A DNA stretch of 64,000 nt from a virus (IMGVR_UViG_3300042484_001802); one strand, 5' to 3'; shown: positions 11,241 to 64,000, counted from the stretch's first letter. Program-made: numbers and translations. The notes: generated by a model from the letters alone, not told the origin.

Positions 11241-11257
11241 AAGTAAAAATTAAAGAC

Positions 11258-33189: not shown

Positions 33190-33199
33190 AATTAAAAAT

Positions 33200-38612: not shown

Positions 38613-38824
38613 GCAAAGAAGTAACACTTAAAGACGAAAAACTTGAGGCACAACTTTTAGAACAAAGAAAAGTTAAATCCTTAGAAAAAATTGCAGCGTC
38701 ATTAGACGCATTAGCCATTTGGTTTGAAGAAATCGATAAGGAAGATTGGAGCAGTAGAATACAATATTATTTATCTGAATTCCATGATGTTGTAAAACCG
38801 AAAGACCCAACCATAAATGGTTAA
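38609..38824 (+). CDS. Hypothetical protein
   Basis: ORF track; coupled to neighbours. Confidence 0.6.
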   Translation: MSKEVTLKDEKLEAQLLEQRKVKSLEKIAASLDALAIWFEEIDKEDWSSRIQYYLSEFHDVVKPKDPTING

Positions 38825-40214
38825 AAAATTAGGTATCATAGTACCCTATAGAGATAGGGAAAAGCATTTGGAAGAATTTAAAAAAAGGATGTCTAGGTAT
38901 TTTAAAAACTTAGACATTCCTTATGAAATTATAATTGTTCACCAAGATAATGCTAAACTTTTTAATAGAGGCATGCTTTTAAACATTGGGTTTAAGCATG
39001 CTGAAAATTTAAAATGTGACTATGTTGTTTTTCATGATGTTGACATGTTACCATTACATGTTGATTATAGTTACTCTGATGTTCCATTACATTTAGTGAC
39101 CAATTTTAGTGAAATAAAAAAGGTTAAAGCCAAGGAAATCTTTGATGAATATTTTGGTGGTGTAACTTTATTTCCAATGGACTTATTCAATAAAGTTAAC
39201 GGGTTTTCTAACAAATATTGGGGTTGGGGTTACGAAGACACAGATTTATTATTACGTTGCATTAAAAAAAATATACCATTAGATTCTGTTAAATTAACTA
39301 ATTCAAGACCTAAAGGTAAATCTTTAAAATTTAACGGTGTAAATGCGTATATTAAAGGTAAAAATAATATAGATTTAAATAAACCTCAAACAATTTTCGT
39401 CTCTTTTTATCCTGATAAAATAATGTTTGACCATACTAAGGTTGTTGATGATTATAACATTTTTACAATACCTGGATATGATACCGCTTTTAGTTACAAT
39501 TCATTTTTAAGATACAACTTCTGCACTTTTAATCAAAAACATGATGCGTTATATGTTAATTCAAAGATAAAAACGAATTATAAAACCAACATGTGTGTCA
39601 CTATTGATACAAATAAAATTTGTGTTTACCAAGATGGTATTTTAATAGATAAAATTGGGAATTCAGAAAAATTGTTAAAATACAAAAATGAAAAGTTTTT
39701 TTATTTGGGTTCAAGTAAACCAGATAGCGATGAACCAAAATTTTTCAAAGGATATATCGATGCGTTTGCAATAATTCCAGAAGTATTATCTGATGAAGAT
39801 GTTTTTAATTTATCACAAAATTCAGCATACTTTTTAAACAAGGTTTGTGATTCCTTATCAATATATTATGACGCTAATTTTATTGAAAACTATAAATTAA
39901 CTGATTTATCGGGAAATGATAATGATGGTGAAATTGTAAATTGTAATATTGTTGATTTGGACATTGAAGAATATAAAATAGTTAAAATACCACATAGAAG
40001 AGATTGTACTTTTTATTTACTGGATCACGAAGAAAATGGTTTTTTAAATAATAGATGGAAAACAGATGCAACAAGGTGGAATCAATTAAGATTTCATAAT
40101 GAAGTTTCAAAGAATGATAAACTATTGGAAAATGATGGTTTATCTGATTTAAAATATACAAAACACGGCATAAAAGTCGTAGATAATATAACACACATTA
40201 ACGTTGGAATATGA
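38817..40214 (+). CDS. GT7 (beta-1,4-galactosyltransferase-like) with an inserted LamG-like domain
   Basis: IIVPYRDR, FNRGMLLNIG, FHDVD, YFGGV, NGFSNKYWGWGYED; insert SLKFNG...VYQDG...FKGYID; then the GT7 C-terminus DGLSDLKY. Confidence 0.85.
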   Translation: MVKKLGIIVPYRDREKHLEEFKKRMSRYFKNLDIPYEIIIVHQDNAKLFNRGMLLNIGFKHAENLKCDYVVFHDVDMLPLHVDYSYSDVPLHLVTNFSEIKKVKAKEIFDEYFGGVTLFPMDLFNKVNGFSNKYWGWGYEDTDLLLRCIKKNIPLDSVKLTNSRPKGKSLKFNGVNAYIKGKNNIDLNKPQTIFVSFYPDKIMFDHTKVVDDYNIFTIPGYDTAFSYNSFLRYNFCTFNQKHDALYVNSKIKTNYKTNMCVTIDTNKICVYQDGILIDKIGNSEKLLKYKNEKFFYLGSSKPDSDEPKFFKGYIDAFAIIPEVLSDEDVFNLSQNSAYFLNKVCDSLSIYYDANFIENYKLTDLSGNDNDGEIVNCNIVDLDIEEYKIVKIPHRRDCTFYLLDHEENGFLNNRWKTDATRWNQLRFHNEVSKNDKLLENDGLSDLKYTKHGIKVVDNITHINVGI

Positions 40215-41641
40215 ACCATAAATTAGGTATTTGTGTACCCTATAGAAATAGAAAAGAACACCTTGATAGATTAATCCCACATTTATCTAAACATTTAGAT
40301 TCCCAAGGAATTGATTATAAATTTTATGTTGCACATCAAGTAGATGACAAACTTTTTAACAGAGGTGCAATGAAAAATATTGCAGCTAAACACGCATTAG
40401 AAGATGGTTGTGATTATATTGCTTGGCACGACGTGGATATGTTGACGTTTGAAGATAGTGATTATTCATATCCAGAAGAAACTCCGATTCATATTGCAAC
40501 TATGTTGTCAAAATACAATTATGGTATAAACTATGATCAATACTTTGGCGGAGTAGTGTTGTTTAATAAAGAACATTTAGAAAAAACAAATGGGTACTCA
40601 AACGACTATTGGGATTGGGGTATGGAAGACGATGATTTGTTTTGGAGATGTTATTATGAAAATTATACAACAGGAAAAATAAAACGTTCATATACCAATA
40701 AACAATACGCGGAATTTAATGGCGTTACATCTAAAATAGAAATACCAAGTACTAGGGAATTAGTTAATTTATTACATAATGACCACACAATTTCTATTTT
40801 ATTTAATGCGGAACAACAACAAGAAAAGGTTCCAATTTGGATGATTGGTGATGAACAAAAACGCTTCATTGAATACCCCATATTTAGAAAAACCGGAGGG
40901 TATAATTACGGTTTATCTTTTAATAATTCTAGGGCAGTTACAATGTGTTTGTTTAACGAAAGAAGACAAACAATCTACAATTGGCTGAAAAGATTTGAAA
41001 ACATGTGGACGTGGGTTACACTAACATATAATAAAGAAGAGGAACGAATATTCTTTTATCTAAATGATGAATTTGGTCGGAATATGAATGGAATCAAAGA
41101 AGACGCTTATTTCCCAGCGTTTGGTAAACTTCTTAGGTACAATACAACAACTCCATTTTATTTAGGACACGATTCAGACATGAACACATTCTTTAAGGGT
41201 AAAATAGCCGAAATTAAGATATATGACAAGTTTTTTCCACACGTTGATATCGGTCAAGTGTTTGATACTGAGAAAGATGGGTTAATTTTACATCACGATT
41301 TCTCAAATAGAGAAAATAATGTTATATTTGATAATGTGGATGCTCACGAATGTATTGGAACCGATATTGTTTATGGTTCAGAGGATGTTGATGTGATTGA
41401 AAACGTAGTACCATTTAGACGAGAGGGTAAATTTTATTGTTTACCACACGTAGATGAAGGGTTTGTTGGTGGAAGATGGGCTAAGGGTGAAACCACAGCT
41501 AAAAACGAAAAAAGATTTGTTACAGAAATGCAACAGAAAAAAATAAATTACAAAGACGATGGGTTGTCAACATTAAAATATGAATTGGTTAGCGTTGAAA
41601 ACTATAGTAACAAATGTGTAATGATAAACACAAAATTATAA
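40211..41641 (+). CDS. Second GT7 with an inserted LamG-like domain
   Basis: VPYRNR, FNRGAMKN, WHDVD, YFGGV, NGYSNDYWDWGMEDDD; insert EFNG...WVTLTY...FKGKIAEIKIYD; C-terminal DGLSTLKY. Confidence 0.85.
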   Translation: MNHKLGICVPYRNRKEHLDRLIPHLSKHLDSQGIDYKFYVAHQVDDKLFNRGAMKNIAAKHALEDGCDYIAWHDVDMLTFEDSDYSYPEETPIHIATMLSKYNYGINYDQYFGGVVLFNKEHLEKTNGYSNDYWDWGMEDDDLFWRCYYENYTTGKIKRSYTNKQYAEFNGVTSKIEIPSTRELVNLLHNDHTISILFNAEQQQEKVPIWMIGDEQKRFIEYPIFRKTGGYNYGLSFNNSRAVTMCLFNERRQTIYNWLKRFENMWTWVTLTYNKEEERIFFYLNDEFGRNMNGIKEDAYFPAFGKLLRYNTTTPFYLGHDSDMNTFFKGKIAEIKIYDKFFPHVDIGQVFDTEKDGLILHHDFSNRENNVIFDNVDAHECIGTDIVYGSEDVDVIENVVPFRREGKFYCLPHVDEGFVGGRWAKGETTAKNEKRFVTEMQQKKINYKDDGLSTLKYELVSVENYSNKCVMINTKL

Positions 41642-41642: not shown

Positions 41643-43058
41643 ATGGCGAAGAAAAAAATTAATAAGGGTGAGAATCCTTTATATGTTGACACAAAAGACA
41701 AACTAGATAAAATAGGTCCGGGTATGTGTTTGGCAAAATGGACACAAGTTACGATACATTTACAAAATGGTCATAACCACTCTTGCCATCACCCTACGAC
41801 TCATAAAATATCTGATAAGGAAATTATTAGAAATCCATCAGCTCTACATAATACTCGATATAAGAAAGAGAAAAGAAGAGAAATGTTGGAGGGTAAAAGA
41901 CCTGAAGAATGTGATTATTGCTGGAGTGTAGAAGATAACTCTGATAGTTTCTCTGATCGTGTTTTCAAGTCAAGTGAGAAATGGTCTTTACCACACTATG
42001 ATGCAATTGCAAATTCTGACTGGAGAGATGACATCAACCCAAAGTATGTTGAGGTAGCATTTTCCAATGCGTGTAACTTTAAATGTTCATATTGTGCACC
42101 ACAGTTCTCGTCACAATGGACGGCTGAAATTGAAAAATTTGGTGGTTACAAAACAAGCACAAAGTTTAATGATCCAGAGCACATGTTAAGGGAAAACACC
42201 AAACCGTTCTTACATACGGATAGTAATCCATACGTTGATGCTTTTTGGAAATGGTGGCCGGATTTATATCGTGACTTATATACGTTTAGAATCACTGGAG
42301 GAGAACCGCTATTATCAAAAGATACTTGGGGTGTTTTAGATTATATCATAGAACAAAAAGAACCAAATAGAGAATTGAATTTAGCTATTAATTCAAATCT
42401 AGGTGTGCCAGACAAACTGATAGATGAATTTATTGAAAAAATATCAAGAATTACCGAAGAAAATCGTGTAAAAGAATTTGTTATTTTCACATCATGCGAT
42501 GCCTGGGGAGAACAAGCTGAGTACATTAGAAATGGTTTAGTGTTTAATAGGTTTTGGGATAATGTGAATAAAATACTTAGTAAGTGTCCTAGAGTAACTT
42601 TAACGTTCATGGTGACATATAATGCGTTATCAGTGTTCTCATTTAATAAATTAATTAAAGGGGTATACGATTTAAAAAACGAATATGGCTCCAAGCAAAG
42701 ATATTGGGATTCCGCAGTTTTCTTGGACACATCATACCTAAGATATCCATTTCATCAAGCAGTTCAAGTGTTACCATATCAATTTTCTAATAATGTTTTA
42801 GAACAAGCAATTAATGCTGAGTTCTTAGGTACATTGGAATTTACAAATAACTATATTGGTTACACTGATATTGAAATTCAAAAATTAAAAAGGATATATG
42901 ATTGGATGATATCACCACAAGATGCAAATAAACAAATGGCGAATAGAAAAGATTTTCACACGTTTTTCACTGAACACGATAGAAGACGTGGAACCGATTT
43001 CCTTAAAACCTTTCCAGAACTAGAAGAGTTCTATAACTTTTGTGGAACCATAAAATAA
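41643..43058 (+). CDS. Radical SAM protein with an N-terminal auxiliary Cys cluster
   Basis: CNFKCSYC, TGGEP; N-terminal C...SCHH...CDYC. Confidence 0.9.
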   Translation: MAKKKINKGENPLYVDTKDKLDKIGPGMCLAKWTQVTIHLQNGHNHSCHHPTTHKISDKEIIRNPSALHNTRYKKEKRREMLEGKRPEECDYCWSVEDNSDSFSDRVFKSSEKWSLPHYDAIANSDWRDDINPKYVEVAFSNACNFKCSYCAPQFSSQWTAEIEKFGGYKTSTKFNDPEHMLRENTKPFLHTDSNPYVDAFWKWWPDLYRDLYTFRITGGEPLLSKDTWGVLDYIIEQKEPNRELNLAINSNLGVPDKLIDEFIEKISRITEENRVKEFVIFTSCDAWGEQAEYIRNGLVFNRFWDNVNKILSKCPRVTLTFMVTYNALSVFSFNKLIKGVYDLKNEYGSKQRYWDSAVFLDTSYLRYPFHQAVQVLPYQFSNNVLEQAINAEFLGTLEFTNNYIGYTDIEIQKLKRIYDWMISPQDANKQMANRKDFHTFFTEHDRRRGTDFLKTFPELEEFYNFCGTIK

Positions 43059-43063
43059 TAACT

Positions 43064-43798
43064 ATGAATTTAACAGTTAAACATAAGAAACCGTATTCAA
43101 TTGTTCCATTAGACAAATACAATATTTGTAAATACACTGCAAACCCTGTAATGAATGAAAAATCTTACACGTTATTTGTTGATGTTAAAATAAATAAAGA
43201 TGAGTGTGATAAAGAAGCTGGAATAATTGTTAGACCAGGTATGCACGCTGGGTTTTTATTTGCACAACCTAATCTTCTAAAGTTTGGTTTCTGGTTTTTT
43301 AAAAATGATGAGCCAATTTATAAAGAGGTTTTCAAATTATTAACTGACGATGATTTTGATGAACATTTGTTTTGTGTAGCAACCGATGACGCAGATACAA
43401 AGATTATAAAAGTATACGTTAATAGCAATTTAATTGGTGAGATTGATTACAGTGAATATGATAGAAAACACAGCTACGTTGGTACACCTTATTATTTTGG
43501 TGTCGCTAATCCATTCTTAGTTGCTAGACCTTTTGATTACTATGGTTCGTTTAATTATAGATTTGCTGGGTTATTGGATATGATTGTTGAGGATATCGAG
43601 GAATTAAAACAAATTCATGAACACGTCACAGTACACCCAAGATTGGAGTACAACATATTCAAAGAAGATTACAAGTATAAACCAAATTTTGTTTTTTACT
43701 TTGATTTTGAAAACCAAAGTAACTACAAGGTTTGGGATGTTTCAGAAAACAATAATTTTCTATGTAAGATTTTAGATAGAGACAATAATTTAATTTAA
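43064..43798 (+). CDS. Stand-alone LamG-like beta-sandwich protein
   Basis: Likely start is ATG 43064; KVYVNS, PYYFG and FYFDF resemble the GT7 inserts. Confidence 0.5.
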   Translation: MNLTVKHKKPYSIVPLDKYNICKYTANPVMNEKSYTLFVDVKINKDECDKEAGIIVRPGMHAGFLFAQPNLLKFGFWFFKNDEPIYKEVFKLLTDDDFDEHLFCVATDDADTKIIKVYVNSNLIGEIDYSEYDRKHSYVGTPYYFGVANPFLVARPFDYYGSFNYRFAGLLDMIVEDIEELKQIHEHVTVHPRLEYNIFKEDYKYKPNFVFYFDFENQSNYKVWDVSENNNFLCKILDRDNNLI

Positions 43799-48714: not shown

Positions 48715-49491
48715 ATGAATACATTAGTTGAAAATGGTTACATAATTGAAGATGCTAAAGATTTACTATCTGAAGAAGATTTTAAAGAACTAGATGGTTT
48801 ATGTGATGCTATAAGTGTCTCCGAAAAAAAACATACAAAATTTTATCAATTTGAATATTGTTTAACAAAAGAAGACGTAAATTATTTTGGTTTAACTGGC
48901 GAAAATTCTAGTGTTAAATTTTCAGATAGAATTGATGTTAGTGATAGTACAGAAAAAAAATTTTCAGTTGAAATGAAAAAAAAACTGATTCAAAAATACT
49001 TTGATTCGGTGCAAACATATGCTGAAAGTTTTTATGAAATAGATAGGTTTTCTTATTTATGTGATAAAATGTCACATGCAATTGCTGACAAATATTATTC
49101 ACATATTTTTAATTTAGATAATTTTAGAAAAAAAGAAATACACAGCACCACTCAAAGGATTGCAACATATGATGAAGATTGTCATATTGCTAAACATAAA
49201 GATGGTTTTAACAATAAAAGGTTATTTGTTATTTTAGTATACCTAAATAAAGAATGGGAAGATACCAATGGGGGAGATTTAGTTATTTACTCTAAAAACA
49301 ATGATAAAATTTCATTAACACCAAAAGCCCCAAGCGTTTGTGTTTTAGATTTCACAAAAAATAATTTAGAACATGAGGTGTTAAAAGTTATAGATGGTAC
49401 AAGATACACATATGTGTCTTTTTATGAGGTGTCAGAATCTTTAATGATAACAGACGAATGGAAAAAACACAAGATAAAAAAAATGATATAA
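48715..49491 (+). CDS. 2OG-Fe(II) oxygenase (prolyl-hydroxylase-like)
   Basis: HKD, YLNKEW...GGDL, HEV, RY. Confidence 0.85.
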   Translation: MNTLVENGYIIEDAKDLLSEEDFKELDGLCDAISVSEKKHTKFYQFEYCLTKEDVNYFGLTGENSSVKFSDRIDVSDSTEKKFSVEMKKKLIQKYFDSVQTYAESFYEIDRFSYLCDKMSHAIADKYYSHIFNLDNFRKKEIHSTTQRIATYDEDCHIAKHKDGFNNKRLFVILVYLNKEWEDTNGGDLVIYSKNNDKISLTPKAPSVCVLDFTKNNLEHEVLKVIDGTRYTYVSFYEVSESLMITDEWKKHKIKKMI

Positions 49492-50675
49492 TGACAGAAA
49501 CATTTTGCCCACTACCATTTATTCATTTTAACGCATATCCAGACAAACAAATTAAACCTTGTTGCTACTCGCAATCATTTTTTGAAAATACCACATTAAA
49601 AAATCAAGATATTGTTACCGCTTTTAATTCTGAAGAATACCAGAAACTACGAAATGATTTACTAAATGGCGTTGAACACAAGTTCTGTGATGTTTGTTGG
49701 AAAACAGAAAAAAATGGTGGAGAAAGCCAAAGAAATAAATGGTCTAATTTTTATAAAGATAAAAAAGAAGACATTATCCAAAAAACAAAAAAAGATGGGT
49801 ATTATCGACCTGACTTTGTTTCTTTAGATTTAAGACCTTCAAATATATGTAATTTCAAGTGTAGAACATGTACTCCAGATTTTTCAACAACCTGGATTGA
49901 TGAAAGAACTAAATTTAGGGAAATTATGGGCAATGAGTTTGAAGATTATAAAACTCAAATTACATCATTTGACATTCCACAAGAAAATATTGATAACCTA
50001 GAGAAAATCTATTTTGCTGGTGGTGAACCATTGTATATGGATGAGATGTATAAGTTTCTAGACAAGATTAAAAATAAACAAAATACTGAAGTGTATTTTA
50101 ATACTAATTTTAGTATTGTAAAACACAAAAATCAATCGGTTTTTGATTTATTTAAAGGGTTTAAAAACGTACACTTTGCAATATCTTGTGATGGTTATGG
50201 TGCCATTGGTGAATATGTTAGAACTAATTTTAAGTGGGATGCGTTTAAAGAAAATGTTAACATGTTAACCAACATTATAAACAACGGAACTAATTTTTCA
50301 TATGGTTTTCAATATACCTCATCATTATTAAATTGTTTTCATTTTTTTGATTTTAGGGATAAATTGTACGAGTTGAATTTTATCTCAAACGACAATCAAT
50401 TACAATTTGGGGTGGCGGAGTATCCGTTTTGGTTAAATCCAGCACATTTTGATTTAAAAGATGAGGTTATTAGGTATTTTGAAAGTAAAATAGATACAAT
50501 ACAAAATAGTTCGTTGCGCACTGAATTGAACAATTACATGATTTACTTGAAAACCTTCAACGACCCTCATTTTTATGCCTTGCATTATTTAAAAAATTTC
50601 ATTAAATTAGGTGATGAGACCAATAACACGGTTTTACCTGAAGAATTAACATATCTAAAAAAATATCTTATATGA
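49491..50675 (+). CDS. Radical SAM protein with an N-terminal SPASM/Twitch-like Cys cluster
   Basis: Likely start is ATG 49491 (MTETFCPLPF); PCC, CDVC, CNFKCRTC, AGGEP. Confidence 0.9.
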   Translation: MTETFCPLPFIHFNAYPDKQIKPCCYSQSFFENTTLKNQDIVTAFNSEEYQKLRNDLLNGVEHKFCDVCWKTEKNGGESQRNKWSNFYKDKKEDIIQKTKKDGYYRPDFVSLDLRPSNICNFKCRTCTPDFSTTWIDERTKFREIMGNEFEDYKTQITSFDIPQENIDNLEKIYFAGGEPLYMDEMYKFLDKIKNKQNTEVYFNTNFSIVKHKNQSVFDLFKGFKNVHFAISCDGYGAIGEYVRTNFKWDAFKENVNMLTNIINNGTNFSYGFQYTSSLLNCFHFFDFRDKLYELNFISNDNQLQFGVAEYPFWLNPAHFDLKDEVIRYFESKIDTIQNSSLRTELNNYMIYLKTFNDPHFYALHYLKNFIKLGDETNNTVLPEELTYLKKYLI

Positions 50676-54350: not shown

Positions 54351-55472
54351 TTGGAAAACAAGGAAATATTAAAAGATTACGTTTGCTTAATGCCATTCTT
54401 ATCCACCGACGTTCAGCAAGCATCACAATTCGTTTGTTGCCCATCTTGGTGCTTTAAAAGTTTAAGAGTAGATGAGAATGGCGAAGAAGAAGATTGGGCA
54501 TCTTACTTTGACACTAGCGCAGACGTAATGAGGAACTGGACATCAACGCCAGCACATGACATTAGAAAATCAATGGTTGATGGTTCATACAGACATTGCA
54601 ATCATGTAGTGTGTCCAAGATTAAATCAATTAATCAATGGTAGTGAGACCACGCCATATATGTTTATGAAGAAGGAAGAATTTCAAAAAACCTTTAACAT
54701 ATACAATGAGGAAGATTTAAAAAAGTTTGACACGCCACCAGAAGAAATATTGTTTGGGTTTGATAGAAGTTGCAATCTTAAATGTCCTAGCTGTAGGGTA
54801 AACTTAATACCAAATGACAATGTCGAATCTGAGGATTATAAAAATAAATTACATCTACTAAACTCAATCGAGAAGAATTTTGCTAGTAATTTAAAAAGAA
54901 TAATGATAACCGGTAGTGGTGATCCGTTCTATTCTAAAATCTATCGCGATTACTTAATAAATTTTGACAGTAGTAAGTACCCCAAGTTAGAAGCGTTACA
55001 GATTATAACCAATGGTAACTTATTAAACGAAAAAATGTGGAATTCAATGAAAGCAACTCCACATATTAAAATCATTGAGATTAGTATTGATGCCGGAACT
55101 AAAGACACATATGAGAACAAAACAAGGTTAAATGGTAAATGGGATGTGTTAATGGAAAATCTACGTTTTTTAAGTACCCAGAATCACATTATTGAGGAGT
55201 TTGTGTTATCAATGGTTGTTAGTAAACACAACTATAAAGAAATGTATACATTTTACGAATTGATAACAAACATATTTAAAAATTCAAATTTTAAATGGGG
55301 ACTATCAATCAACTATAGACAATTGGTTGATTGGGGCACATTTTCTAAAGAAACATTAGAAGAATTACAGGTTTTCAACATAGAACACCCTGATTATCAA
55401 GATTTTATGTCTGAATTAAAAAAAATACACAACCAGCCGTTTGTTAATCATAATTTCAACCATCTTCTATAG
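54351..55472 (+). CDS. Radical SAM protein with an N-terminal Cys cluster
   Basis: CLMPF, VCCPSW, C...CP, CNLKCPSC, TGSGDPF; TTG start. Confidence 0.9.
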   Translation: MENKEILKDYVCLMPFLSTDVQQASQFVCCPSWCFKSLRVDENGEEEDWASYFDTSADVMRNWTSTPAHDIRKSMVDGSYRHCNHVVCPRLNQLINGSETTPYMFMKKEEFQKTFNIYNEEDLKKFDTPPEEILFGFDRSCNLKCPSCRVNLIPNDNVESEDYKNKLHLLNSIEKNFASNLKRIMITGSGDPFYSKIYRDYLINFDSSKYPKLEALQIITNGNLLNEKMWNSMKATPHIKIIEISIDAGTKDTYENKTRLNGKWDVLMENLRFLSTQNHIIEEFVLSMVVSKHNYKEMYTFYELITNIFKNSNFKWGLSINYRQLVDWGTFSKETLEELQVFNIEHPDYQDFMSELKKIHNQPFVNHNFNHLL

Positions 55473-56451: not shown

Positions 56452-56828
56452 GTAAGAAATATGCAATGTACATCGGTAGGTGGCAAAATTGGCATAAAGG
56501 TCACGAATGGTTGATCCGTCAACAAATGGACCAAGGTAAGAACATATGGGTAGCTATTAGGGATGTTGAAGTTGACGAGAACAACCCTAAAACAGCTCAA
56601 GAGGTTTTTCAAATGTTAATCCAGGAGCCCTTTTTTAACGAGAATTTTGATAAGATTTTACTATCAATTATCCCAGATATTGAATCGGTTAATTATGGTA
56701 GAGGTGTTGGTTACGATGTTATTTATCACGAGCCACCGGCGGATGTTGCGGTAATAAGCGGAACTGCTATTAGAACTGGACATATGACCGCTGATGGCTC
56801 AATAAAATATGACCAAACAAAAGGATAA
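56448..56828 (+). CDS. Minimal HxGH nucleotidyltransferase (cytidylyltransferase/ATP-sulfurylase-like)
   Basis: IGRWQNWHKGH, YGRGVGY, ISGTAIR. Confidence 0.75.
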   Translation: MSKKYAMYIGRWQNWHKGHEWLIRQQMDQGKNIWVAIRDVEVDENNPKTAQEVFQMLIQEPFFNENFDKILLSIIPDIESVNYGRGVGYDVIYHEPPADVAVISGTAIRTGHMTADGSIKYDQTKG

Positions 56829-57043
56829 TGATTGTAGAACGTAAACGACATATAGCCAAAACAATATCCTATCGTATTATAAGCACTATAATAGGTTTCC
56901 TTATAATGTGGTGGGTTAGTGGATCTATTAAGATTGGTGCAACCTTTGGTGTGGCTGAATTAGTATACAAACCTATTCAATATTACCTACATGAAAGGAT
57001 TTGGTATAGATGGATAAAGTTCGGGGTAAAAGATAAAAAATAA
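56828..57043 (+). CDS. DUF2061-like small membrane protein
   Basis: RHIAKTISYRII...YYLHERIW. Confidence 0.8.
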   Translation: MIVERKRHIAKTISYRIISTIIGFLIMWWVSGSIKIGATFGVAELVYKPIQYYLHERIWYRWIKFGVKDKK

Positions 57044-57067: not shown

Positions 57068-58555
57068 ATGAGAACAGTATTGATAGGATCAGATTTTATG
57101 TACGATAAGGATGGTAATTTAAGACCCATTGAAATAAACACTGCGGTTGGTTGGGATGGTCCCGAAAAAGTCGAGGAAGATGTTGATTGTTTGGATTTAA
57201 CAAATTTATATCAATTTGTTGAGGATAATAATTTCCAAACGATACATTATGTTGGTGATATTGGTCCATTACACGTGACATTAATGACACATTATAGCGG
57301 AAGTTCTGTTACATATGAATTTCACGGGGTTGGTGCAACTTCCATTACAGTTCCATACATAGAAGATACTGAAACGACTTTAATTATTAGGAGTGCATAT
57401 GACACAACAGCACTAGTGGATGACACATATTGTAAGGATAAAATAGAGTTCATGAATCTAATTAAAGATTCTTCTTTTGGCTCCCAATTTGCGTACATTG
57501 ACGAAAATAACACATTGGTGTCAAATATCACATCTATAAATGATAACGGCGAACACCCTAATTTTATTTTAAAATCTAGATTTCCAGGTTATGACAAGTT
57601 AATTTATCCAAAATTTTTTAAAGTTACAACTCAATCTGAATTAGACACTATAATAGCAAATAATGTTACAAGTGAGTATTTTTTAATGGAGTACCTATGT
57701 AACGTCAATAAACTATGGGAAGGGCATTTAACGGTGATAAGAAGTTTAAACATTTTAGTCCCACCAAATTTAGAATCAATTCAAATTGGCCAATATACAA
57801 AATTGAATCAAAATATGTTACTAGATAATGTGACATATGATTCAATCACATTTGAAGTATATTCAGATTTCAAAGAGAGTTATAGTACAAACCCACCTAC
57901 CGGTTTTCAACCTAAATTATTGAATACTGATATGGTAGAAATGGCAGATGGGACATTAAAAACTGCATTGGATTTACAAATTGGGGACGTTATTAAAACA
58001 ATTGAAATACCAAATGAAAAGGGAACTAGTATAGATAGTTACGTATCCTCCGAATTTGGGCTTACGTACGATACGTTGGTAAGTGATGCAATATATACAA
58101 CTAATGTCGTAACCAAAAAACAAAAAGTAAACACCTTAACTTTTATAAATGAATTAACATTTGAAGATGCTAGTACCTGGGAAGATACTATGGGCTCAAA
58201 GTATTTGATAGACAGAGAAGGTGTGGTTATGTTTAAATCATTATGGGGGATATTTCCAGGAGATGTGGTTATATTATTAGATACTACTGATGATAATATA
58301 AATTTTGTAAGAAAAACAGTTACATCAAATATTCAAGTTAAGAGAGTGTTCTCTGGTTGGTTTATTTCAGTTGATACCGCTATGTTATTTTTAACTAAAA
58401 CAGCCGGGTCAACCAATAACGAATCATATGTTTCAATTGAACATAACCTTATATCTTGTCCCAATTGGACATGTACAAACGCTTGCTGGTCCATCTGTCC
58501 ATCATGTCCGAAGTATATGTCTTGTCAATCTAATTACTGTTTTCCAGTATGTTAA
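57068..58555 (+). CDS. Circularly permuted ATP-grasp-like domain + Hint domain + C-terminal Cys-rich peptide
   Basis: N-terminal GSDFMYDKDGNLRPIEINT (D...ExN), DK, ILKSR, LMEY; Hint block A-like VEMADGTLKTALDLQIGDVI (about aa 283); terminal IEHN (aa 460); then 35 aa with 8 Cys. Confidence 0.7.
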   Translation: MRTVLIGSDFMYDKDGNLRPIEINTAVGWDGPEKVEEDVDCLDLTNLYQFVEDNNFQTIHYVGDIGPLHVTLMTHYSGSSVTYEFHGVGATSITVPYIEDTETTLIIRSAYDTTALVDDTYCKDKIEFMNLIKDSSFGSQFAYIDENNTLVSNITSINDNGEHPNFILKSRFPGYDKLIYPKFFKVTTQSELDTIIANNVTSEYFLMEYLCNVNKLWEGHLTVIRSLNILVPPNLESIQIGQYTKLNQNMLLDNVTYDSITFEVYSDFKESYSTNPPTGFQPKLLNTDMVEMADGTLKTALDLQIGDVIKTIEIPNEKGTSIDSYVSSEFGLTYDTLVSDAIYTTNVVTKKQKVNTLTFINELTFEDASTWEDTMGSKYLIDREGVVMFKSLWGIFPGDVVILLDTTDDNINFVRKTVTSNIQVKRVFSGWFISVDTAMLFLTKTAGSTNNESYVSIEHNLISCPNWTCTNACWSICPSCPKYMSCQSNYCFPVC

Positions 58556-58584: not shown

Positions 58585-58674
58585 ATGGCAACAATTATAT
58601 CAAATACAGACATCAATACTTTAAACACCACAATTACAACAATAGGTAGTTTAATTGTAACAGCAAACAGTTAG
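58585..58674 (+). CDS. 29-aa Thr/Ile/Asn-rich peptide
   Basis: MATIISNTDINTLNTTITTIGSLIVTANS; A-rich leader like other genes here; fills the gap between two genes. Confidence 0.55.
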   Translation: MATIISNTDINTLNTTITTIGSLIVTANS

Positions 58675-58697: not shown

Positions 58698-59231
58698 ATG
58701 ATACATTTCATACCAAATATTCTTACTAAGGATGAGTGTGAATACTTAACGAATCAATTTGATTTCGAAAGAAAATATCAAATCTCGGCGGATAATGAAT
58801 ATACTGGCACCAATATATCATATGGGTTTGCCCCTTCATTTGCGTTTAATACCTATTTAAATAAATTAAAATCAAAAGTGTTAGAATATAACAATAATTT
58901 TGATGATTTATTCAATGTAAACACATTTGTTAGGGAATATATGAACACCTCAATGTTAAAAAAACATTTAGATAGAAAAGACATTAGTGTTACTATGTCT
59001 ATATGTTTAGAATCCACAATAAATAAAGAATGGCCGTTATGTGCGGAAATCGGAAATAAGGAATATTGTTTCAACACAAATATTGGTGACGGTATTTTAT
59101 TATTTGATGCGGATAAAATCACACATTGGAGGGAACCCTTAATATGTCTGGAGAAAGAAAGAGTTGTCCAATTTTTTTTACATTGGAAACCTTCTGATTA
59201 CGTCGCAAAAAAAACAAAATCATTATTATAA
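58698..59231 (+). CDS. 2OG-Fe(II) oxygenase
   Basis: LKKHLDR, GDGILL, HWRE, QFFLHW. Confidence 0.8.
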   Translation: MIHFIPNILTKDECEYLTNQFDFERKYQISADNEYTGTNISYGFAPSFAFNTYLNKLKSKVLEYNNNFDDLFNVNTFVREYMNTSMLKKHLDRKDISVTMSICLESTINKEWPLCAEIGNKEYCFNTNIGDGILLFDADKITHWREPLICLEKERVVQFFLHWKPSDYVAKKTKSLL

Positions 59232-59242
59232 AAAAATAAATT

Positions 59243-59827
59243 ATGCCATTTACATATACAATAGAGTCAACCTTTTTAACAAAAGAAGAATGTGATTTAA
59301 TATTAGATTTTTCATTAAAAGAATTAAAATTAGTACCATCGGAAATTCTTACCAATTACACCGATGGTGGCGACGTTAATACCGATATTAGAAAATCAAA
59401 TCAAGTATTTTACCCCTATTATAAAAAATTTCCATTTTTATTAGAAAAAATGAGTAAATTATTAAATCAACATATTTTTGTTAAAGGGTTCGATTTAGAT
59501 TTTAAAGAAAGTCAATTTCAGTTTACTGAGTATCATCCAGGCGGACATTTTGGCTGGCATAGAGATGCTCATGGAAAAAAAATAACGGATTATGACAGGT
59601 ATTGTTCATTAGTGATACAACTAAATGATGAGTATGGAGAGGGTGATTTACAAATAAAAGATGATCAGAATGGGACCCTAACAGTTGAAAAGGGTACAGG
59701 AAATTTGATATTATTTTTATCAAATATTGAACATAGAGTAGTGCCAGTAAAAAGTGGGATTAGATATACACTAGTTAATTGGGTGAAATTAAAACAAAAA
59801 AAAGATTATAAAAAAACACTTTTATAG
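59243..59827 (+). CDS. 2OG-Fe(II) oxygenase (PKHD/P4H-like)
   Basis: QFTEY..GGHFGWHRD, GEGDL, HRVVPV.SGIRYTLVNW. Confidence 0.9.
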   Translation: MPFTYTIESTFLTKEECDLILDFSLKELKLVPSEILTNYTDGGDVNTDIRKSNQVFYPYYKKFPFLLEKMSKLLNQHIFVKGFDLDFKESQFQFTEYHPGGHFGWHRDAHGKKITDYDRYCSLVIQLNDEYGEGDLQIKDDQNGTLTVEKGTGNLILFLSNIEHRVVPVKSGIRYTLVNWVKLKQKKDYKKTLL

Positions 59828-59828
59828 C

Positions 59829-60146
59829 ATGAAAATAAATTTTAAAGAAATATTAAATGCTTGGTATAATGTTATAAATCACACACCAGAACAAAAGGAA
59901 TTAGCAGATAAAAGATTCGCTATATGTTTAGAATGCCCCTCTAAAATAGAAATTTTAAAAGACAAGAAATGGCTTTTTAAATGTAAAGAATGTGGTTGTC
60001 CTTTAGGCGCAAAAGTTTACACTGAAACAACATACCTTACTAAAGACAAATCTTGTCCACTTGATAAATGGAAAGAAGTTGAAATGGAATTTATGAGTAA
60101 ACATAGTGACACGATTAAATATAAAACTAAAAAAACATTTCTTTAG
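59829..60146 (+). CDS. Small Cys-rich (Zn/Fe-binding) protein
   Basis: RFAICLECP...CKECGCPL..K...CPLDKW. Confidence 0.7.
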   Translation: MKINFKEILNAWYNVINHTPEQKELADKRFAICLECPSKIEILKDKKWLFKCKECGCPLGAKVYTETTYLTKDKSCPLDKWKEVEMEFMSKHSDTIKYKTKKTFL

Positions 60147-60148
60147 TT

Positions 60149-60838
60149 ATGGGTTATTTAATAAACGATGACCTTTTATGGGTGATCACCCCTAAATGTG
60201 CTAGCGACTCAATAGAAACTGCATTATTAAACTCAAGTTTAAATTTAAAAAAATATAGCGAGCACTTCGAACAACATACCCATATGCATATACCACTAAA
60301 CGAGTGCTTAACTAAGTTTGGTAAAAAAGAAACAATATGTATCACTAGAGATTGGTTTGAAAAATGGTTAAGTTCATTAAATTTTATTTGGGATTATATA
60401 GAATTATATAGTGAATATGAACCAGTATGTAAATGGGAGGACATCAATAATAATGTTATTTATGAGATATTTGATAGCGAATTTGTAAATAAACTTTACT
60501 CATTAAATCATACCTCTAATGAAGAATGTTTTTTGAAATTATTAAAAAGGAACACCGAAGATATTATAAACGTACCCAAAGAAATTTATGGAATAATAAT
60601 AACTCTAATATCTGAACGCTATTGGAAAAGTAATGTAAAATGCACATATGAATTTGATATTAAAAAATTAGACGATTTTGTTAATTTCATTGAAAATAGG
60701 TTTGGTGAAAAATTAATAATAGAAAAGAAAAACGTATCTACAAAAAGACCAAATAAATTAATAGTAAATAATGAATTAAAATCTTTTGTTTGGGAAAAAT
60801 TTGAAAAAATATTTGAAAAAAGAAATCAATTAATTTAA
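60149..60838 (+). CDS. Sulfotransferase-family-like protein
   Basis: PKCAS (5'-PSB-like) and RDWFEKWLS (3'-PB-like). Confidence 0.6.
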   Translation: MGYLINDDLLWVITPKCASDSIETALLNSSLNLKKYSEHFEQHTHMHIPLNECLTKFGKKETICITRDWFEKWLSSLNFIWDYIELYSEYEPVCKWEDINNNVIYEIFDSEFVNKLYSLNHTSNEECFLKLLKRNTEDIINVPKEIYGIIITLISERYWKSNVKCTYEFDIKKLDDFVNFIENRFGEKLIIEKKNVSTKRPNKLIVNNELKSFVWEKFEKIFEKRNQLI

Positions 60839-60839
60839 T

Positions 60840-61508
60840 ATGGCAACTATTTGGACATTTGGGGATTCATTTACTTCTGGAGACGGGTGTGTAGAAAACC
60901 TAAGAATTAGAGACGGCGATTTTAGATATTATAACGAATATAAAAAACTAGGTAGTGATATATGGCCTAATTTATTAGGTAAAACTTTAGGATATGACGT
61001 AAAAAATCTAGGAAAAAGTGGTGCAAGTAATGACTATATTTTAGATTCTATTATTGATAATTTTAACATGATAGAACCAAATGATGTGGTGATAATTGAA
61101 AAAACATTTTACCAAAGATTTGATATACCTAAATCAACGGGTGATGGGTTTCAAACAATTTACGCTGAAGGACTTTATCAACTTTCTATTGATTTAAAAA
61201 TGGAAAGATATTCTTGTGAAGATAAATTAGAAATTGAAACGGTATTAAATTATGGTGTTTTATTTTCCGACAATAAATTATTTAAAGAAAGACAAGATAA
61301 ACGATTTGAATTTATACAAGCACAATTAAATAATAAAACAGATAAAATATTAATATGGGATGTTTTAGATTTTTTAGACGGTAAAATTGAAACGATAGGT
61401 CAACACACTGAGGGTAATATAAAAGATTATCATTTTAGTTTTAATGGTCATAAAAGATTTAGCGAATTTCTATACAAAAAATTATATATTAAACCCTCAT
61501 TAGTTTAA
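60840..61508 (+). CDS. SGNH/GDSL-like hydrolase or acyltransferase
   Basis: FGDSFT, NLGKSGASN, DYHFSFNGH. Confidence 0.7.
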   Translation: MATIWTFGDSFTSGDGCVENLRIRDGDFRYYNEYKKLGSDIWPNLLGKTLGYDVKNLGKSGASNDYILDSIIDNFNMIEPNDVVIIEKTFYQRFDIPKSTGDGFQTIYAEGLYQLSIDLKMERYSCEDKLEIETVLNYGVLFSDNKLFKERQDKRFEFIQAQLNNKTDKILIWDVLDFLDGKIETIGQHTEGNIKDYHFSFNGHKRFSEFLYKKLYIKPSLV

Positions 61509-62240
61509 ATGTTAGTCGATAAAAAATTTATTTTTATAAGTTTACCAAGATGTGCATCAACATCATTTATGATTACGTGTGTTAAAAACAAAATACCAAT
61601 AGAGCATTTCAACTCAAACCATGATAATCAGTTGATTAAAATCAATGAATGGGAAAAAATGGGTAATGAAGAATTGGCAGATAGATTAGTACATGCACAC
61701 GAACCATTACATATGTTACAAGAAAAATTTGGGACGAGCAACCAAATTATTTCAATAAGACGAAATAAGTACGATAGATTTTTATCTTTATGGAAACACA
61801 TCATAGACGAATTACACAGAATTAACAAACTTGATATTGCTGACATCTTTTCAAAATTAACAACTAATGATCTGTTTGATAATATTAAACCAAATGACAT
61901 TTATAATTCGGAAAATAGAGTTAAAGTTATTGATAATTTTTTATCTAGGTTAGAAATTTCAAAAGAAGAATCTTACACTAAAAATATGTTAGATATATTG
62001 TTTATGCCAGTAGTTGAACTTACAAATAACGACCCAAATATTATCTGGTTTGATATTAACAGTTTGAGAGATTTAGAAAATTGGGTGTCAAAAAAACTAA
62101 ATAGAGATTTTAAAATGGAAAAAATAAATTCAAGTAAACATTTTAATTCAGTAATGGAGAACGATGATAATTTTAAACAGAAATATGATAATCTTTATAA
62201 AGAATTTGACCAAAGAAAAACAACTAAAACATTATTGTAA
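61509..62240 (+). CDS. Sulfotransferase-family-like protein
   Basis: FIFISLPRCASTS, RNKYDRFLSLW, INSS. Confidence 0.65.
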   Translation: MLVDKKFIFISLPRCASTSFMITCVKNKIPIEHFNSNHDNQLIKINEWEKMGNEELADRLVHAHEPLHMLQEKFGTSNQIISIRRNKYDRFLSLWKHIIDELHRINKLDIADIFSKLTTNDLFDNIKPNDIYNSENRVKVIDNFLSRLEISKEESYTKNMLDILFMPVVELTNNDPNIIWFDINSLRDLENWVSKKLNRDFKMEKINSSKHFNSVMENDDNFKQKYDNLYKEFDQRKTTKTLL

Positions 62241-63409
62241 TGGAAATTCAATTTTGGTATAGCGATATTTTACCAAATACAAATATTAGAAATTCAATCG
62301 AAAAAATAGATAGTGACATCTTATTTAAAAATATCCACACCGATAAGGTAGATGTTACAAAATTAAATTTTTTATTTTTTTTGTTAGAAACTGAATGGAC
62401 TAATTCCGATATCCCAAACATAGCGTATACTCATTCTAGTGAATTTATTGAATTACTAATTAAATTACAATCTGAAAATTTCTATTTTATGTGTAATAAT
62501 TCTGGGGAAGCCGAACTTTGGGTGGATAATTTATCCTTGAATTTTTTTAATTTGTTAAAAAAAAATAAAATTGATTTTAACAGATTAATAATTGTAAATA
62601 ACGATTCATCTAAAATTGGTATAGGTAAAACAAAATATGGGGATTTTATATTAAACACCTGTTTTTTTCCTAATTTCTTTTTATCTACCTATGAGCATTT
62701 AAAGTCATATGTAACTGAATTAAACCCTAACACCATACCTGATAAAAAATTCTTATGTTTAAATAGAAGAATGGGTTATGAAAAATATAAATTAATCGAG
62801 AGGTTATATCATATGGGGTTGTTAAATGACACCAGATTTTCTTGGGTAAAAAATAGCACGAATAAAAATCTGTTAAATAAAGAATTACTTAATGAATTAA
62901 ACATAGATGTTGATAACTTTAACCCTATTCAGTTAGAAGATGATGTAATGTATGGTGCTGATTTAGTTATGGAAAAGTATCTTTACACCATAAACCCCAA
63001 ATGGTATTATAAAAGTAAAGTTAATATTATATTGGAAACAATGCTATACCCAAATTCAATTCATCTGACAGAAAAAACCTGGAAAGCAATTTATTTAGGT
63101 GTCCCGTTTGTTATATATTCACCATCTAAACACTATCTTAAAACCTTAAGGGATATGGGATTCAAGACATTTAATTCTGTGATTAATGAGGATTATGATG
63201 AGATGCTAGGTAAAGATAAAATAACACAAGTTATAAAAAGCGCTGAAGAACTGGCTAGTATCTATGACACCCCCAAAGTATTAGATATATGTAGATTTAA
63301 CCAAGAATTATATTTTAATTTTCAACACAGAAAAAAAATATATAATGAGTTTTTTTTAAATAAAATTTGTGATGTTAAAAACTTAACAATTCCTAAAACA
63401 TTAATTTAA
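62240..63409 (+). CDS. Putative GT10-like glycosyltransferase, paralogue C
   Basis: FLCLNRR, ILET...LTEKTWKA...VPFVIY...MGFKTF...INEDYD. Confidence 0.5.
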   Translation: MEIQFWYSDILPNTNIRNSIEKIDSDILFKNIHTDKVDVTKLNFLFFLLETEWTNSDIPNIAYTHSSEFIELLIKLQSENFYFMCNNSGEAELWVDNLSLNFFNLLKKNKIDFNRLIIVNNDSSKIGIGKTKYGDFILNTCFFPNFFLSTYEHLKSYVTELNPNTIPDKKFLCLNRRMGYEKYKLIERLYHMGLLNDTRFSWVKNSTNKNLLNKELLNELNIDVDNFNPIQLEDDVMYGADLVMEKYLYTINPKWYYKSKVNIILETMLYPNSIHLTEKTWKAIYLGVPFVIYSPSKHYLKTLRDMGFKTFNSVINEDYDEMLGKDKITQVIKSAEELASIYDTPKVLDICRFNQELYFNFQHRKKIYNEFFLNKICDVKNLTIPKTLI

Positions 63410-64000
63410 ATGGGTAATAAAATTGATTTAAAAAATTATACGTGTAGTGTGCCATTTACATCATTAGAAATACATAACAATGTTTGTTTTGTGTGCTGTC
63501 CATCCTGGTTACCAAACAAAGTAGAACTTAGTGAAATTCCATTAAAAGATGTTTATAATAGCGAACCAATTATTGATATAAGAAACTCGATATTAGATGG
63601 TTCATTTAGATATTGTAGTCAAGAGCTTTGTCCTTATTTAAGTAAATTAGTGAAGTATGGTGCGGAATCTGGGCCAGTCACTTTAAAATCAAATTCAAAT
63701 GTTAATAGCCCTATTGTAAAAAATAACGCACCAGATTATTTGATGATGAATTTTGATAGAACATGTAACTACAAATGTCCATCATGTAGAGTTGATTTAA
63801 TAGTTGAAAATAGTGAGGGTATAAAACGTGTAGAAAAAACAATAGAGGAGATTGATAATCACTACTCGAAATATGTTAAAACCCTATATATTACTGGATC
63901 AGGGGATCCGTTTGTTTCTGTCGGATTCAGAAATTATCTAAGAAATTTTAACCCTAAAAAATACCCAAACTTAAATTCCATACACCTACACACAAATGCG
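63410..64000 (+). CDS. Radical SAM protein (3'-truncated by the window edge), paralogue of 54351-55472
   Basis: MGNKIDLKNYTCSVPF...VCCPSW...CSQELCP...FDRTCNYKCPSCR...ITGSGDPF; open to the window end. Confidence 0.9.
   Translation, partial: MGNKIDLKNYTCSVPFTSLEIHNNVCFVCCPSWLPNKVELSEIPLKDVYNSEPIIDIRNSILDGSFRYCSQELCPYLSKLVKYGAESGPVTLKSNSNVNSPIVKNNAPDYLMMNFDRTCNYKCPSCRVDLIVENSEGIKRVEKTIEEIDNHYSKYVKTLYITGSGDPFVSVGFRNYLRNFNPKKYPNLNSIHLHTNA

What the first reader, a model, noticed from the sequence alone, without database searches (positions are those of the whole stretch)
58698..63409. Seven consecutive unrelated proteins share a C-terminal tag (K-[ST]-L-[LIV]-COOH)
Seen: the C-termini of the seven ORFs after the Hint gene are KKTKSLL, DYKKTLL, KTKKTFL, EKRNQLI, YIKPSLV, KTTKTLL and TIPKTLI. 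They belong to different families (two 2OG oxygenases, a Cys-rich protein, two sulfotransferase-like, one SGNH-like, one GT-like), so shared ancestry does not explain it. Six of seven fit [ST]-x-[LIV]-COOH preceded by basic residues, which is the established class I PDZ-ligand pattern. The roughly 20 enzymes upstream (36-57 kb), including GT paralogues A and B, mostly lack it. Inference: a docking or targeting tag recruiting tailoring enzymes to a common scaffold, substrate or compartment, or a degron (the phage encodes its own ClpP and an AAA ATPase). Caveat: most of these stops abut the next start, so A/T-rich translation-initiation constraints could bias the ends. However, the motif stays in register with the stop codon for gaps from -1 to 11 nt.
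Basis: partly seen in the sequence, partly recalled or inferred. Interest (0 to 1): 0.85.

Follow-up and report, generated by a model that had tools for sequence, protein, structure and literature searches.

The report
Shared C-terminal tag on phage enzymes
In this uncultured giant phage and its relatives, almost every enzyme encoded next to one ligase/self-cutting protein ends in the same four residues (Lys, Ser/Thr, Leu/Ile, Leu/Ile); selection keeps this ending, so it probably plugs unrelated enzymes into a common partner, which has not been identified.

Summary
The seven ORFs end as stated. An identical contig shows the run is eleven genes long.

- **Specificity:** in a complete 237-kb relative, the strict tag [KR][ST][LIFMV][LIVM]-COOH occurs on 6 of 288 ORFs. 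All six are consecutive and lie beside the homologue of window gene 57068-58555. Background is 0/300 ORFs and 0/131 tightly coupled genes.
- **Selection on the peptide:** homologues keep the tag down to about 35% identity. Codons vary (Ser by TCN and AGT, Leu by five codons), all three stop codons occur, and downstream contexts differ.
- **Spread:** about ten unrelated families carry it, including 2OG oxygenases, a radical SAM enzyme, a Trp halogenase, an SGNH-like protein and a Zn-ribbon protein. Cyanophage homologues do not.
- **Position:** it sits on a variable, disordered tail.
- **Neighbour:** tagged genes flank a permuted ATP-grasp/Hint protein with a hypervariable Cys-rich end.

Best reading (0.42): a docking tag that brings tailoring enzymes to a shared hub or substrate. 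No reader was found, and a complete relative has no PDZ domain. A degron, a ligase handle and membrane targeting remain possible.

This scan found the same tag earlier on related DNA (e1-5557614, e1-5339694). I found no paper describing it.

The parts
58698..59231 (+). O1, 177 aa, remote 2OG-oxygenase fold. Tag KSLL at 59217-59228.
   Evidence: hhalign to the O2 family: 83%, E 8.7e-6. All 10 distinct homologues end K-S-L-[LI].
59243..59827 (+). O2, 194 aa, 2OG-Fe(II) oxygenase. Tag KTLL at 59813-59824.
   Evidence: Pfam PF13640, 1.1e-13. The tag is kept down to about 41% identity with varied codons. AF2 model: the fold ends at residue 185, residues 186-194 are coil, and pLDDT is below 50 at 192-194.
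59829..60146 (+). O3, 105 aa, Cys-rich Zn-ribbon-like protein. Tag KTFL at 60132-60143.
   Evidence: Alignment A2: conserved Cys core, then a linker variable in length and sequence, then K-x-[KT]-K-[TS] and two hydrophobic residues. 14 of 16 distinct homologues carry the strict tag.
60149..60838 (+). O4, 229 aa, paralogue of O6. Degenerate tag NQLI at 60824-60835.
   Evidence: Same BLAST family as O6. Homologues end NQLI, NTLI, NHLI or NYLI. No significant Pfam match.
60840..61508 (+). O5, 222 aa, SGNH/GDSL-like (weak match). Tag PSLV at 61494-61505.
   Evidence: Pfam GDSL matches below the curated cut-off. Homologues end KP[ST]L[IV].
61509..62240 (+). O6, 243 aa, no Pfam family. Tag KTLL at 62226-62237.
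   Evidence: 21 of 29 distinct family members carry the strict tag, and 29 of 29 end in two hydrophobic residues, down to 34% identity.
62240..63409 (+). O7, 389 aa, no Pfam family. Tag KTLI at 63395-63406.
   Evidence: Homologues with 54-100% identity keep [KNS]-[TS]-L-I. Homologues below 38% identity, from other phage lineages, lack it.
63410..64000 (+). Radical SAM enzyme cut by the window end. The full protein (349 aa) ends NKTLI.
   Evidence: Identical contig L003, 11171-12220. Pfam Radical_SAM 1.7e-7.
57068..58555 (+). Untagged neighbour and candidate hub or substrate. It has a permuted ATP-grasp-like domain, a Hint/BIL domain ending in an invariant His-Asn, and a hypervariable Cys-rich tail of about 35 aa.
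   Evidence: Alignment A1. Foldseek hits: BIL2 6y75 at 1e-7 and eukaryotic glutathione synthetases 3kaj/1m0w at about 3e-5 (model pLDDT 67). Tagged genes flank it in every locus seen.
58585..58674 (+). Conserved 29-aa Thr/Asn/Ile-rich small ORF directly after the Hint gene. Relatives of the G001 type have a 45-49 aa Lys-rich ORF at the same place.
   Evidence: An ORF is present in the gap after the Hint gene in all 19 distinct loci, and it is conserved as peptide within each type.

Best explanation
The tag is a short linear docking motif. A basic run and K-[ST] are followed by two hydrophobic residues and the free carboxylate, all on a flexible tail.

It lets a changing set of unrelated, free-standing tailoring enzymes bind one common reader. 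That brings them to a shared macromolecular substrate or assembly encoded by the same cassette. These enzymes include 2OG hydroxylases, a radical SAM enzyme, a flavin Trp halogenase, an SGNH-like protein, a Zn-ribbon protein and several families of unknown fold.

The leading candidate for the hub is the ATP-grasp/Hint/Cys-rich protein (57068-58555), possibly together with the small ORF that follows it.

Shown: the tag exists, is under peptide-level selection, is cassette-specific, lies on a disordered tail, and co-occurs with the Hint gene. Inferred: that it binds anything, and what it binds.
For: 1. **Specificity.** In the complete relative G001, 6 of 288 ORFs carry the strict tag. All six are consecutive and abut the Hint-gene homologue. 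Background is 0/300.
2. **Peptide-level selection.** Among 192 distinct tails, position -4 is K in 112 and position -3 is T in 76 and S in 51. Ser is encoded by TCA/TCT (27 tails) and by AGT (18). Leu uses TTA, CTT, CTA, TTG and CTC. Stop codons are TAA 130, TGA 39 and TAG 23. The tag is kept whatever the downstream gap or gene, and on minus-strand and isolated genes.
3. **Motif architecture.** In nearly every family the last four residues are more conserved than the 4-12 residues before them. O3 has a linker of variable length. The O2 tail is unstructured in a confident model.
4. **Linkage to the Hint gene.** Tagged runs flank it in the window, G001, G003, L005, L014, L071, L075 and others. 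The gene was found in 4 of 5 contigs with tagged genes and in 0 of 5 control contigs whose homologues lack the tag, although all ten contigs are fragments.
5. **Division of labour.** Precursor-supply enzymes in the same cluster are untagged: APS kinase, a small nucleotidyltransferase-like protein, TPP-enzyme subunits and a tandem epimerase/dehydratase. That the tagged families act on a finished substrate is my inference.
6. **Not ancestral.** Cyanophage 2OG homologues (about 30% identity) and distant O7 homologues lack the tag.
Against: - No reader has been identified.
- No PDZ domain is present in the complete relative G001.
- Linkage to the Hint gene is neighbourhood evidence only. Some tagged genes lie about 50 kb from it (G003), and one tagged homologue sits alone in a different phage context (L023).
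- Tag variants do not switch in concert within genomes. The Zn-ribbon family keeps F-L in both lineages while its neighbours have L-I. So there is no co-variation signal pointing to a specific pocket.
- In the L021 lineage the K-[ST] part is degenerate and only the two terminal hydrophobic residues persist.
Confidence: 0.42

Rival explanations
1. Degron or timer. The basic-then-hydrophobic C-terminus is read by a host AAA+ protease or unfoldase, for example in the manner of the ClpX 'C-motif 2' of MuA (RRKKAI-COOH; from my own knowledge). The whole enzyme set would then be short-lived or remodelled.
For: The tail is exposed, basic and ends in hydrophobic residues with a free carboxylate. One signal on a whole co-expressed set would give it a common lifetime. 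A host reader would explain why no phage-encoded reader was found.
Against: The tag is unlike the proteolysis tag encoded by the tmRNA of relative G001, which ends AVAA. The window's 'ClpP' matches head-maturation protease families best. A general degron would not be expected on 6 consecutive genes and on none of the other 282 ORFs. The conserved hydroxyl residue at -3 is not a feature of known ClpX motifs (my own knowledge).
Confidence: 0.15
2. Ligase handle. The ATP-grasp domain of the neighbouring protein activates the terminal carboxylate of the tag, as glutathione synthetase, RimK and tubulin-tyrosine ligase do with C-terminal carboxylates. It then extends or ligates the enzymes covalently.
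For: The N-domain model resembles permuted, glutathione-synthetase-type ATP-grasp enzymes. Its E-x-N and Lys/Arg positions are invariant. The exact placement of the motif at the carboxylate fits a carboxylate-reading enzyme. K and S/T in the tag are potential nucleophiles.
Against: No known biology needs ten enzymes to be C-terminally ligated. The known protein-tail ATP-grasp ligases act on acidic tails (my own knowledge). The fold assignment rests on a model with pLDDT 67. The ligase has more obvious candidate substrates: its own released Cys-rich peptide and the adjacent small ORF.
Confidence: 0.12
3. Membrane or compartment address. The polybasic run plus two terminal hydrophobic residues holds the enzymes at the inner membrane or at a phage assembly site where the substrate is made.
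For: K is enriched from -4 to -7, followed by two hydrophobic residues. A small membrane protein family (71 aa, 56828-57043) and glycan-type enzymes lie in the same cluster.
Against: Two hydrophobic residues next to a charged carboxylate make a very weak membrane anchor. The conserved S/T and the strict terminal register point to a protein reader. No amphipathic helix is predicted in the O2 tail.
Confidence: 0.1
4. By-product of gene organisation. The ending reflects A/T-rich junction sequence, translational coupling, termination context, or recombination at repeated gene junctions. The peptide itself has no function.
For: The genome has about 30% G+C. Most junctions in the run are tight, and K, I and L are cheap codons here.
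Against: None of 131 tightly coupled background genes has the tag. Codons at every tag position vary, including both Ser codon families, and all three stop codons occur. The tag persists with gaps of 20-60 nt, before different downstream genes, on the minus strand and on isolated genes.
Confidence: 0.04

Closest known systems
Class I PDZ-binding motifs (X-[S/T]-X-hydrophobic-COOH)
   Same: Four-residue C-terminal motif with a hydroxyl residue at -2, a hydrophobic last residue and a free carboxylate, on an exposed tail of unrelated proteins. Six of the seven window ORFs fit the pattern.
   Different: No PDZ domain is detected in a complete related phage. Position -1 is also strictly hydrophobic, and K at -3 is conserved. 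In one lineage the S/T is lost while the two hydrophobic residues persist. In my knowledge, bacterial PDZ domains are mostly periplasmic or membrane-bound, whereas these enzymes have no obvious export signal.
Peroxisomal targeting signal 1 (-[SAC]-[KRH]-[LM]-COOH) read by Pex5
   Same: One very short C-terminal address shared by many unrelated enzymes and read by a single receptor. This is the best conceptual analogue.
   Different: The residue order differs (K-[ST]-L-[LI] rather than S-K-L). The setting is a tailed phage of bacteria, with no peroxisome and no known receptor.
C-terminal short linear motifs that dock on beta-hairpin docking domains in NRPS/PKS assembly lines
   Same: Short C-terminal peptides on flexible tails bring biosynthetic proteins together within one gene cluster (my own knowledge; the topic appears in PMC11186497, found but not read).
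   Different: Those motifs pair two specific subunits. Here one tag is shared by about ten families of free-standing tailoring enzymes, and no docking domain has been recognised.
Phage hub-binding tails: T4 clamp-binding C-termini of gp43, gp33 and gp55, and T7 acidic tails of gp2.5 and gp4
   Same: Unrelated phage proteins carry a similar C-terminal tail that docks on one hub protein (my own knowledge; also cited in scan note e1-173140).
   Different: Those are DNA replication or transcription proteins with hydrophobic-aromatic or acidic tails. Here the proteins are tailoring enzymes with a basic tail ending in two hydrophobic residues, and the hub is unknown.
Dockerin-cohesin (cellulosome)
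   Same: Unrelated enzymes share a C-terminal module that plugs them into a scaffold.
   Different: A dockerin is a folded domain of about 70 residues. This tag is 4-7 residues long.
Pretoxin-HINT / bacterial intein-like (BIL) releasing domains
   Same: The neighbouring protein has a Hint fold with a terminal His-Asn followed by a hypervariable C-terminal module.
   Different: This concerns the neighbouring protein, not the tag. It is fused to a permuted ATP-grasp-like domain, and what follows it is a Cys-rich peptide of about 35 aa rather than a toxin domain.

Membership tests
Class I PDZ ligand | [S/T]-x-hydrophobic-COOH at the extreme C-terminus | tested here: met
   Six of seven window ORFs fit. 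T or S is at the corresponding position in 127 of 192 distinct tails.
Class I PDZ ligand | A PDZ domain that reads it | tested here: not met
   PF13180, PF00595 and PF17820 give no match at E <= 1 in the complete relative G001, while the control genomes ring. A host PDZ domain cannot be excluded because the host is unknown.
Peroxisomal targeting signal 1 | [SAC]-[KRH]-[LM]-COOH | tested here: not met
   The consensus is K-[ST]-[LI]-[IL]. The last three residues are [ST] followed by two hydrophobic residues.
ssrA-type degron | C-terminus ending in small nonpolar residues (L/V-A-A), as added by tmRNA | tested here: not met
   The tmRNA of relative G001 encodes a tag ending A-V-A-A. The enzyme tag ends L-I or L-L.
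ClpX C-motif 2 (MuA-like) | Basic residues followed by a short nonpolar end that ClpX recognises | not testable with these tools
   The basic-then-hydrophobic character is similar. Recognition can only be shown by degradation or binding assays.
Beta-clamp-binding motif | Q-L-[SD]-L-F-type pentapeptide | tested here: not met
   There is no conserved Gln and no terminal aromatic residue. Positions -5 and -4 are mostly K, N or T.
Short linear motif (generic definition) | A short island of conservation within a disordered, poorly conserved region | tested here: met
   The last four residues are more conserved than positions -5 to -16 in nearly every family. O3 has a linker of variable length. The O2 tail is coil with low pLDDT.
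Short linear motif (generic definition) | Convergent presence on non-homologous proteins | tested here: met
   The tag is found on 2OG oxygenases, radical SAM, Trp halogenase (PF04820, 5e-94), an SGNH-like protein, a Zn-ribbon protein and several families with no Pfam match. It is absent from cyanophage 2OG homologues.

The most novel reading that the evidence does not exclude
These uncultured giant phages use a four-residue C-terminal 'address code'. Any enzyme that acquires K-[ST] plus two hydrophobic residues at its carboxyl end is recruited to the ATP-grasp/Hint precursor complex. The phage can then swap tailoring enzymes in and out of a modular peptide- or protein-modification pathway. 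This is the reverse of RiPP logic, where the substrate's leader is read by each enzyme. It would be the first enzyme-side recruitment tag described for a viral or bacterial biosynthetic cluster.
Probability: 0.3. Interest if true: 0.88.

Novelty: new variant of a known kind. Interest (0 to 1): 0.76.

Why it matters
If the tag is a recruitment signal, it shows a simple and evolvable way of assembling a multi-enzyme pathway. Four residues would be enough to enrol an enzyme of any fold. That would explain how these phage cassettes shuffle enzyme families so freely.

The tag is also a practical annotation handle. It marks which of the many 'hypothetical' genes in these widespread freshwater phages belong to one pathway. 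The neighbouring ligase/Hint protein alone has more than 700 metagenomic homologues, none of them annotated.

The question is directly testable with peptides and pull-downs.

Tried and rejected
- **Complex prediction.** The ATP-grasp/Hint protein (alignment A1) with the tagged Zn-ribbon protein O3 (A2) scored 0.02 against a mark of 0.32. The tool's verdict is no answer, neither for nor against binding.
- **PDZ search.** Three Pfam PDZ models found nothing in the complete relative G001.
- **Cultured relatives.** The Hint protein and O6 have no match in 50,697 GenBank phage records, and 7 kb of window DNA has none either. No annotated or cultured relative is therefore available. The SbcC-like gene is at most 24% identical to a Microcystis phage and to huge uncultured phages.
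- **Sequence search of solved structures** with the A1 profile gave nothing significant.
- **Literature.** Seven full-text searches found no description of this tag or cassette. The nearest context is Iyer et al. 2010 (PMC2938197). It describes tandem dioxygenase arrays in cyanophages and proposes hydroxylation followed by sulfation of co-encoded fibre-like proteins.
- **Concerted switching.** I looked for tag variants that change together within a genome, which would point to a co-evolving pocket. None was seen. The preference for a last L or I follows the enzyme family, not the genome.
- **Whole genome.** None is held for the window, so the genome-wide census used the complete relative G001 instead.
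- **Nucleotide-level explanations** (late-promoter-like or junction repeats) were rejected on the codon evidence.


Full report
**1. The observation**

ORF listing and direct reading of the junctions confirm the seven endings: KSLL, KTLL, KTFL, NQLI, PSLV, KTLL and KTLI.
- The window is a fragment of an uncultured tailed phage. It has SbcCD-like nuclease genes and a head-maturation protease, about 30% G+C, and nearly all genes on one strand.
- No whole genome is held for it. IMG/VR holds identical or near-identical contigs.
- On contig L003, identical to the window over these genes, the run continues past the window edge. The truncated radical SAM ends KTLI, and three more genes end KNII, KSLI and NKLI. 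That makes eleven consecutive genes.

**2. It is not chance and not a junction artefact**

I used the strict pattern [KR][ST][LIFMV][LIVM]-COOH.
- Composition predicts about 0.001 hits per protein.
- The observed background is 0 of 300 ORFs (window 1-36 kb plus the rest of the complete relative) and 2 of 432 ORFs in control phage loci.
- The complete 237-kb relative G001 has 288 ORFs. Exactly six carry the strict tag. All six are consecutive, at 8552-12739, directly upstream of the homologue of window gene 57068-58555.
- Of 131 tightly coupled genes elsewhere in these genomes, none has the tag. In the run the count is 7 of 10, and 10 of 10 end in two hydrophobic residues (p = 2e-9).

**3. Selection acts on the peptide**

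tblastn of the seven proteins against 76 related loci shows the ending is retained down to roughly 35-40% identity. The residues just upstream vary freely. Across 192 distinct tails:
- Position -4 is K in 112.
- Position -3 is T in 76 and S in 51. Ser is written with TCA/TCT (27 tails) and with AGT (18).
- Leu at -2 uses TTA, CTT, CTA, TTG and CTC.
- All three stop codons occur (TAA 130, TGA 39, TAG 23).

The tag is kept before different downstream genes, with gaps from overlaps to more than 60 nt. It is also kept on minus-strand genes and on isolated genes.

In nearly every family the last four residues are more conserved than the 4-12 residues before them.
- In the Zn-ribbon family the folded core is followed by a linker of variable length and then the tag.
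- In a confident AF2 model of O2 (pLDDT 86.5) the fold ends at residue 185. The last nine residues are coil, with pLDDT below 50 at the tip.

This is the anatomy of a short linear motif on a flexible tail.

**4. Who carries it**

All-against-all clustering of 1,851 ORFs shows the tag on these groups:
- The 2OG-oxygenase families. O2 matches Pfam at 1e-13, and O1 is a remote relative.
- The O4/O6 family, which has no Pfam match.
- The O7 family.
- A radical SAM family.
- The SGNH-like O5 family.
- The Zn-ribbon O3 family.
- A flavin-dependent tryptophan halogenase (PF04820, 5e-94).
- Several families with no Pfam match (fam4, fam17, fam35).

The tag is not ancestral. Cyanophage 2OG homologues end differently, and O7 homologues below 38% identity, from other phage lineages, lack it.

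Enzymes in the same cluster that look like precursor supply are untagged: APS kinase, a small nucleotidyltransferase-like protein, TPP-enzyme subunits and a tandem epimerase/dehydratase.

The seven ORFs represent about five independent folds, because O4/O6 and O1/O2 are related pairs. The labels 'sulfotransferase-like' and 'GT-like' are not supported by Pfam.

**5. What the tagged genes surround**

In every locus with enough sequence, the tagged genes flank one untagged gene, the homologue of 57068-58555. Its alignment and model show three parts:
- An N-terminal domain with ATP-grasp motifs in permuted order. The model resembles eukaryotic glutathione synthetases (E about 3e-5).
- A Hint/BIL domain. 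The best Foldseek hit is BIL2, 6y75, at 1e-7. The alignment shows no conserved Cys, Ser or Thr where inteins carry their N-terminal nucleophile (my reading), while the terminal His-Asn is invariant.
- A hypervariable tail of 25-45 residues with a conserved Cys framework.

A conserved small ORF always follows it. It is 29 aa in the window lineage and 45-49 aa in the G001 lineage.

The family has more than 700 metagenomic homologues, all unannotated. It has none in GenBank phages. Among 185,579 species genomes it has one hit, a 3.7-kb contig binned with a Pelagibacterales MAG that carries the same cassette with tagged neighbours.

The gene was found in 4 of 5 contigs holding tagged genes. One of these is a 912-aa multi-Hint variant right next to a tagged run. 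It was found in 0 of 5 control contigs, but all ten contigs are fragments.

**6. Mechanism**

The evidence fits a docking motif that enrols unrelated tailoring enzymes at a common hub or substrate. The ATP-grasp/Hint protein, or its complex with the small ORF, is the leading candidate. Only neighbourhood supports that last step.

Alternatives that stay open:
- **A degron.** The tag is unlike the tmRNA-encoded tag of relative G001, which ends AVAA. The 'ClpP' in the window matches head-protease families best.
- **A handle for the ATP-grasp ligase.** Such enzymes activate carboxylates, but no biology is known that requires ligating ten enzymes.
- **A weak membrane or site address.**

A pure junction or translation by-product is largely excluded.

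The PDZ label is a pattern match only. No PDZ domain is present in the complete relative.

**7. Novelty**

Shared C-terminal address or docking motifs are a known kind. Examples are PTS1, PDZ ligands, clamp-binding tails and the docking motifs of NRPS/PKS assembly lines. A single four-residue tag shared by about ten families of tailoring enzymes in a phage cassette is not described in any paper I could find.

The scan has already recorded the same tag on related DNA (e1-5557614, e1-5339694). Other first-reader notes cover the same stretch. Those notes are not independent evidence, but my tests agree with them.

I rate it a new variant of a known kind.

Noticed in passing
window 57068-58555: A fusion protein of three parts: a permuted ATP-grasp-like domain, a Hint/BIL domain with an invariant terminal His-Asn, and a hypervariable Cys-rich tail. 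The alignment shows no conserved N-terminal nucleophile in the Hint domain. The layout looks built to release a peptide of about 35 aa with 8 Cys. It has more than 700 unannotated metagenomic homologues.
   Followed up: partly
window 58585-58674: A conserved 29-aa Thr/Asn/Ile-rich ORF directly after the Hint gene. The G001 lineage has an unrelated 45-49 aa Lys-rich ORF ending K-H-L-S at the same position. It could be a second substrate, a scaffold peptide or an adaptor.
   Followed up: partly
L021:1151-3889 (contig G002): A 912-aa variant of the ATP-grasp/Hint protein. It has three Hint/intein-type stretches and an AXH-like match, and ends V-H-N-K with no Cys-rich tail. It sits directly upstream of a run of genes ending in L-I, where the K-[ST] part of the tag is degenerate.
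   Followed up: partly
L077:9879-11087 (G001): A flavin-dependent tryptophan halogenase (PF04820, 5e-94) carrying the KTLI tag. The Cys-rich tails of the same lineage contain conserved Trp residues, which suggests a halogenated peptide product.
   Followed up: no
L084:14503 to L085:523 (G001): The complete relative encodes a tmRNA (tag ending A-D-Y-A-V-A-A) and 21 tRNA genes in one block.
   Followed up: no
L092 (VHCC01000082.1): The only hit in cellular genome collections is a 3.7-kb contig binned in a 'Candidatus Pelagibacterales' lake MAG. It carries the same cassette: a 2OG gene ending KTII, a 645-aa Hint protein, a 49-aa ORF and a Zn-ribbon gene ending KTIL. It is probably a mis-binned phage fragment, and perhaps a hint at a freshwater SAR11-type host.
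   Followed up: partly
window 32515-36269: Three neighbouring fibre-like ORFs end in a shared R-[YF]-G-[LI]-[TS] C-terminus (RYGLT, RYGLT, RFGIS). Relatives show RYGV and RFGI. This is probably a paralogous fibre C-terminal module.
   Followed up: no
window 43040-43798, 48715-49491, 49458-50675, 54351-55472: Four upstream enzymes end in two hydrophobic residues without the K-[ST] part (NNLI, KKMI, KYLI, NHLL). Relatives of the last one, a radical SAM, mostly end NKTLI. These may be weaker or decaying copies of the tag.
   Followed up: partly
window 38817-41641: Two tandem GT7-type glycosyltransferases, each with a concanavalin-A/LamG-like domain. Both are untagged.
   Followed up: no
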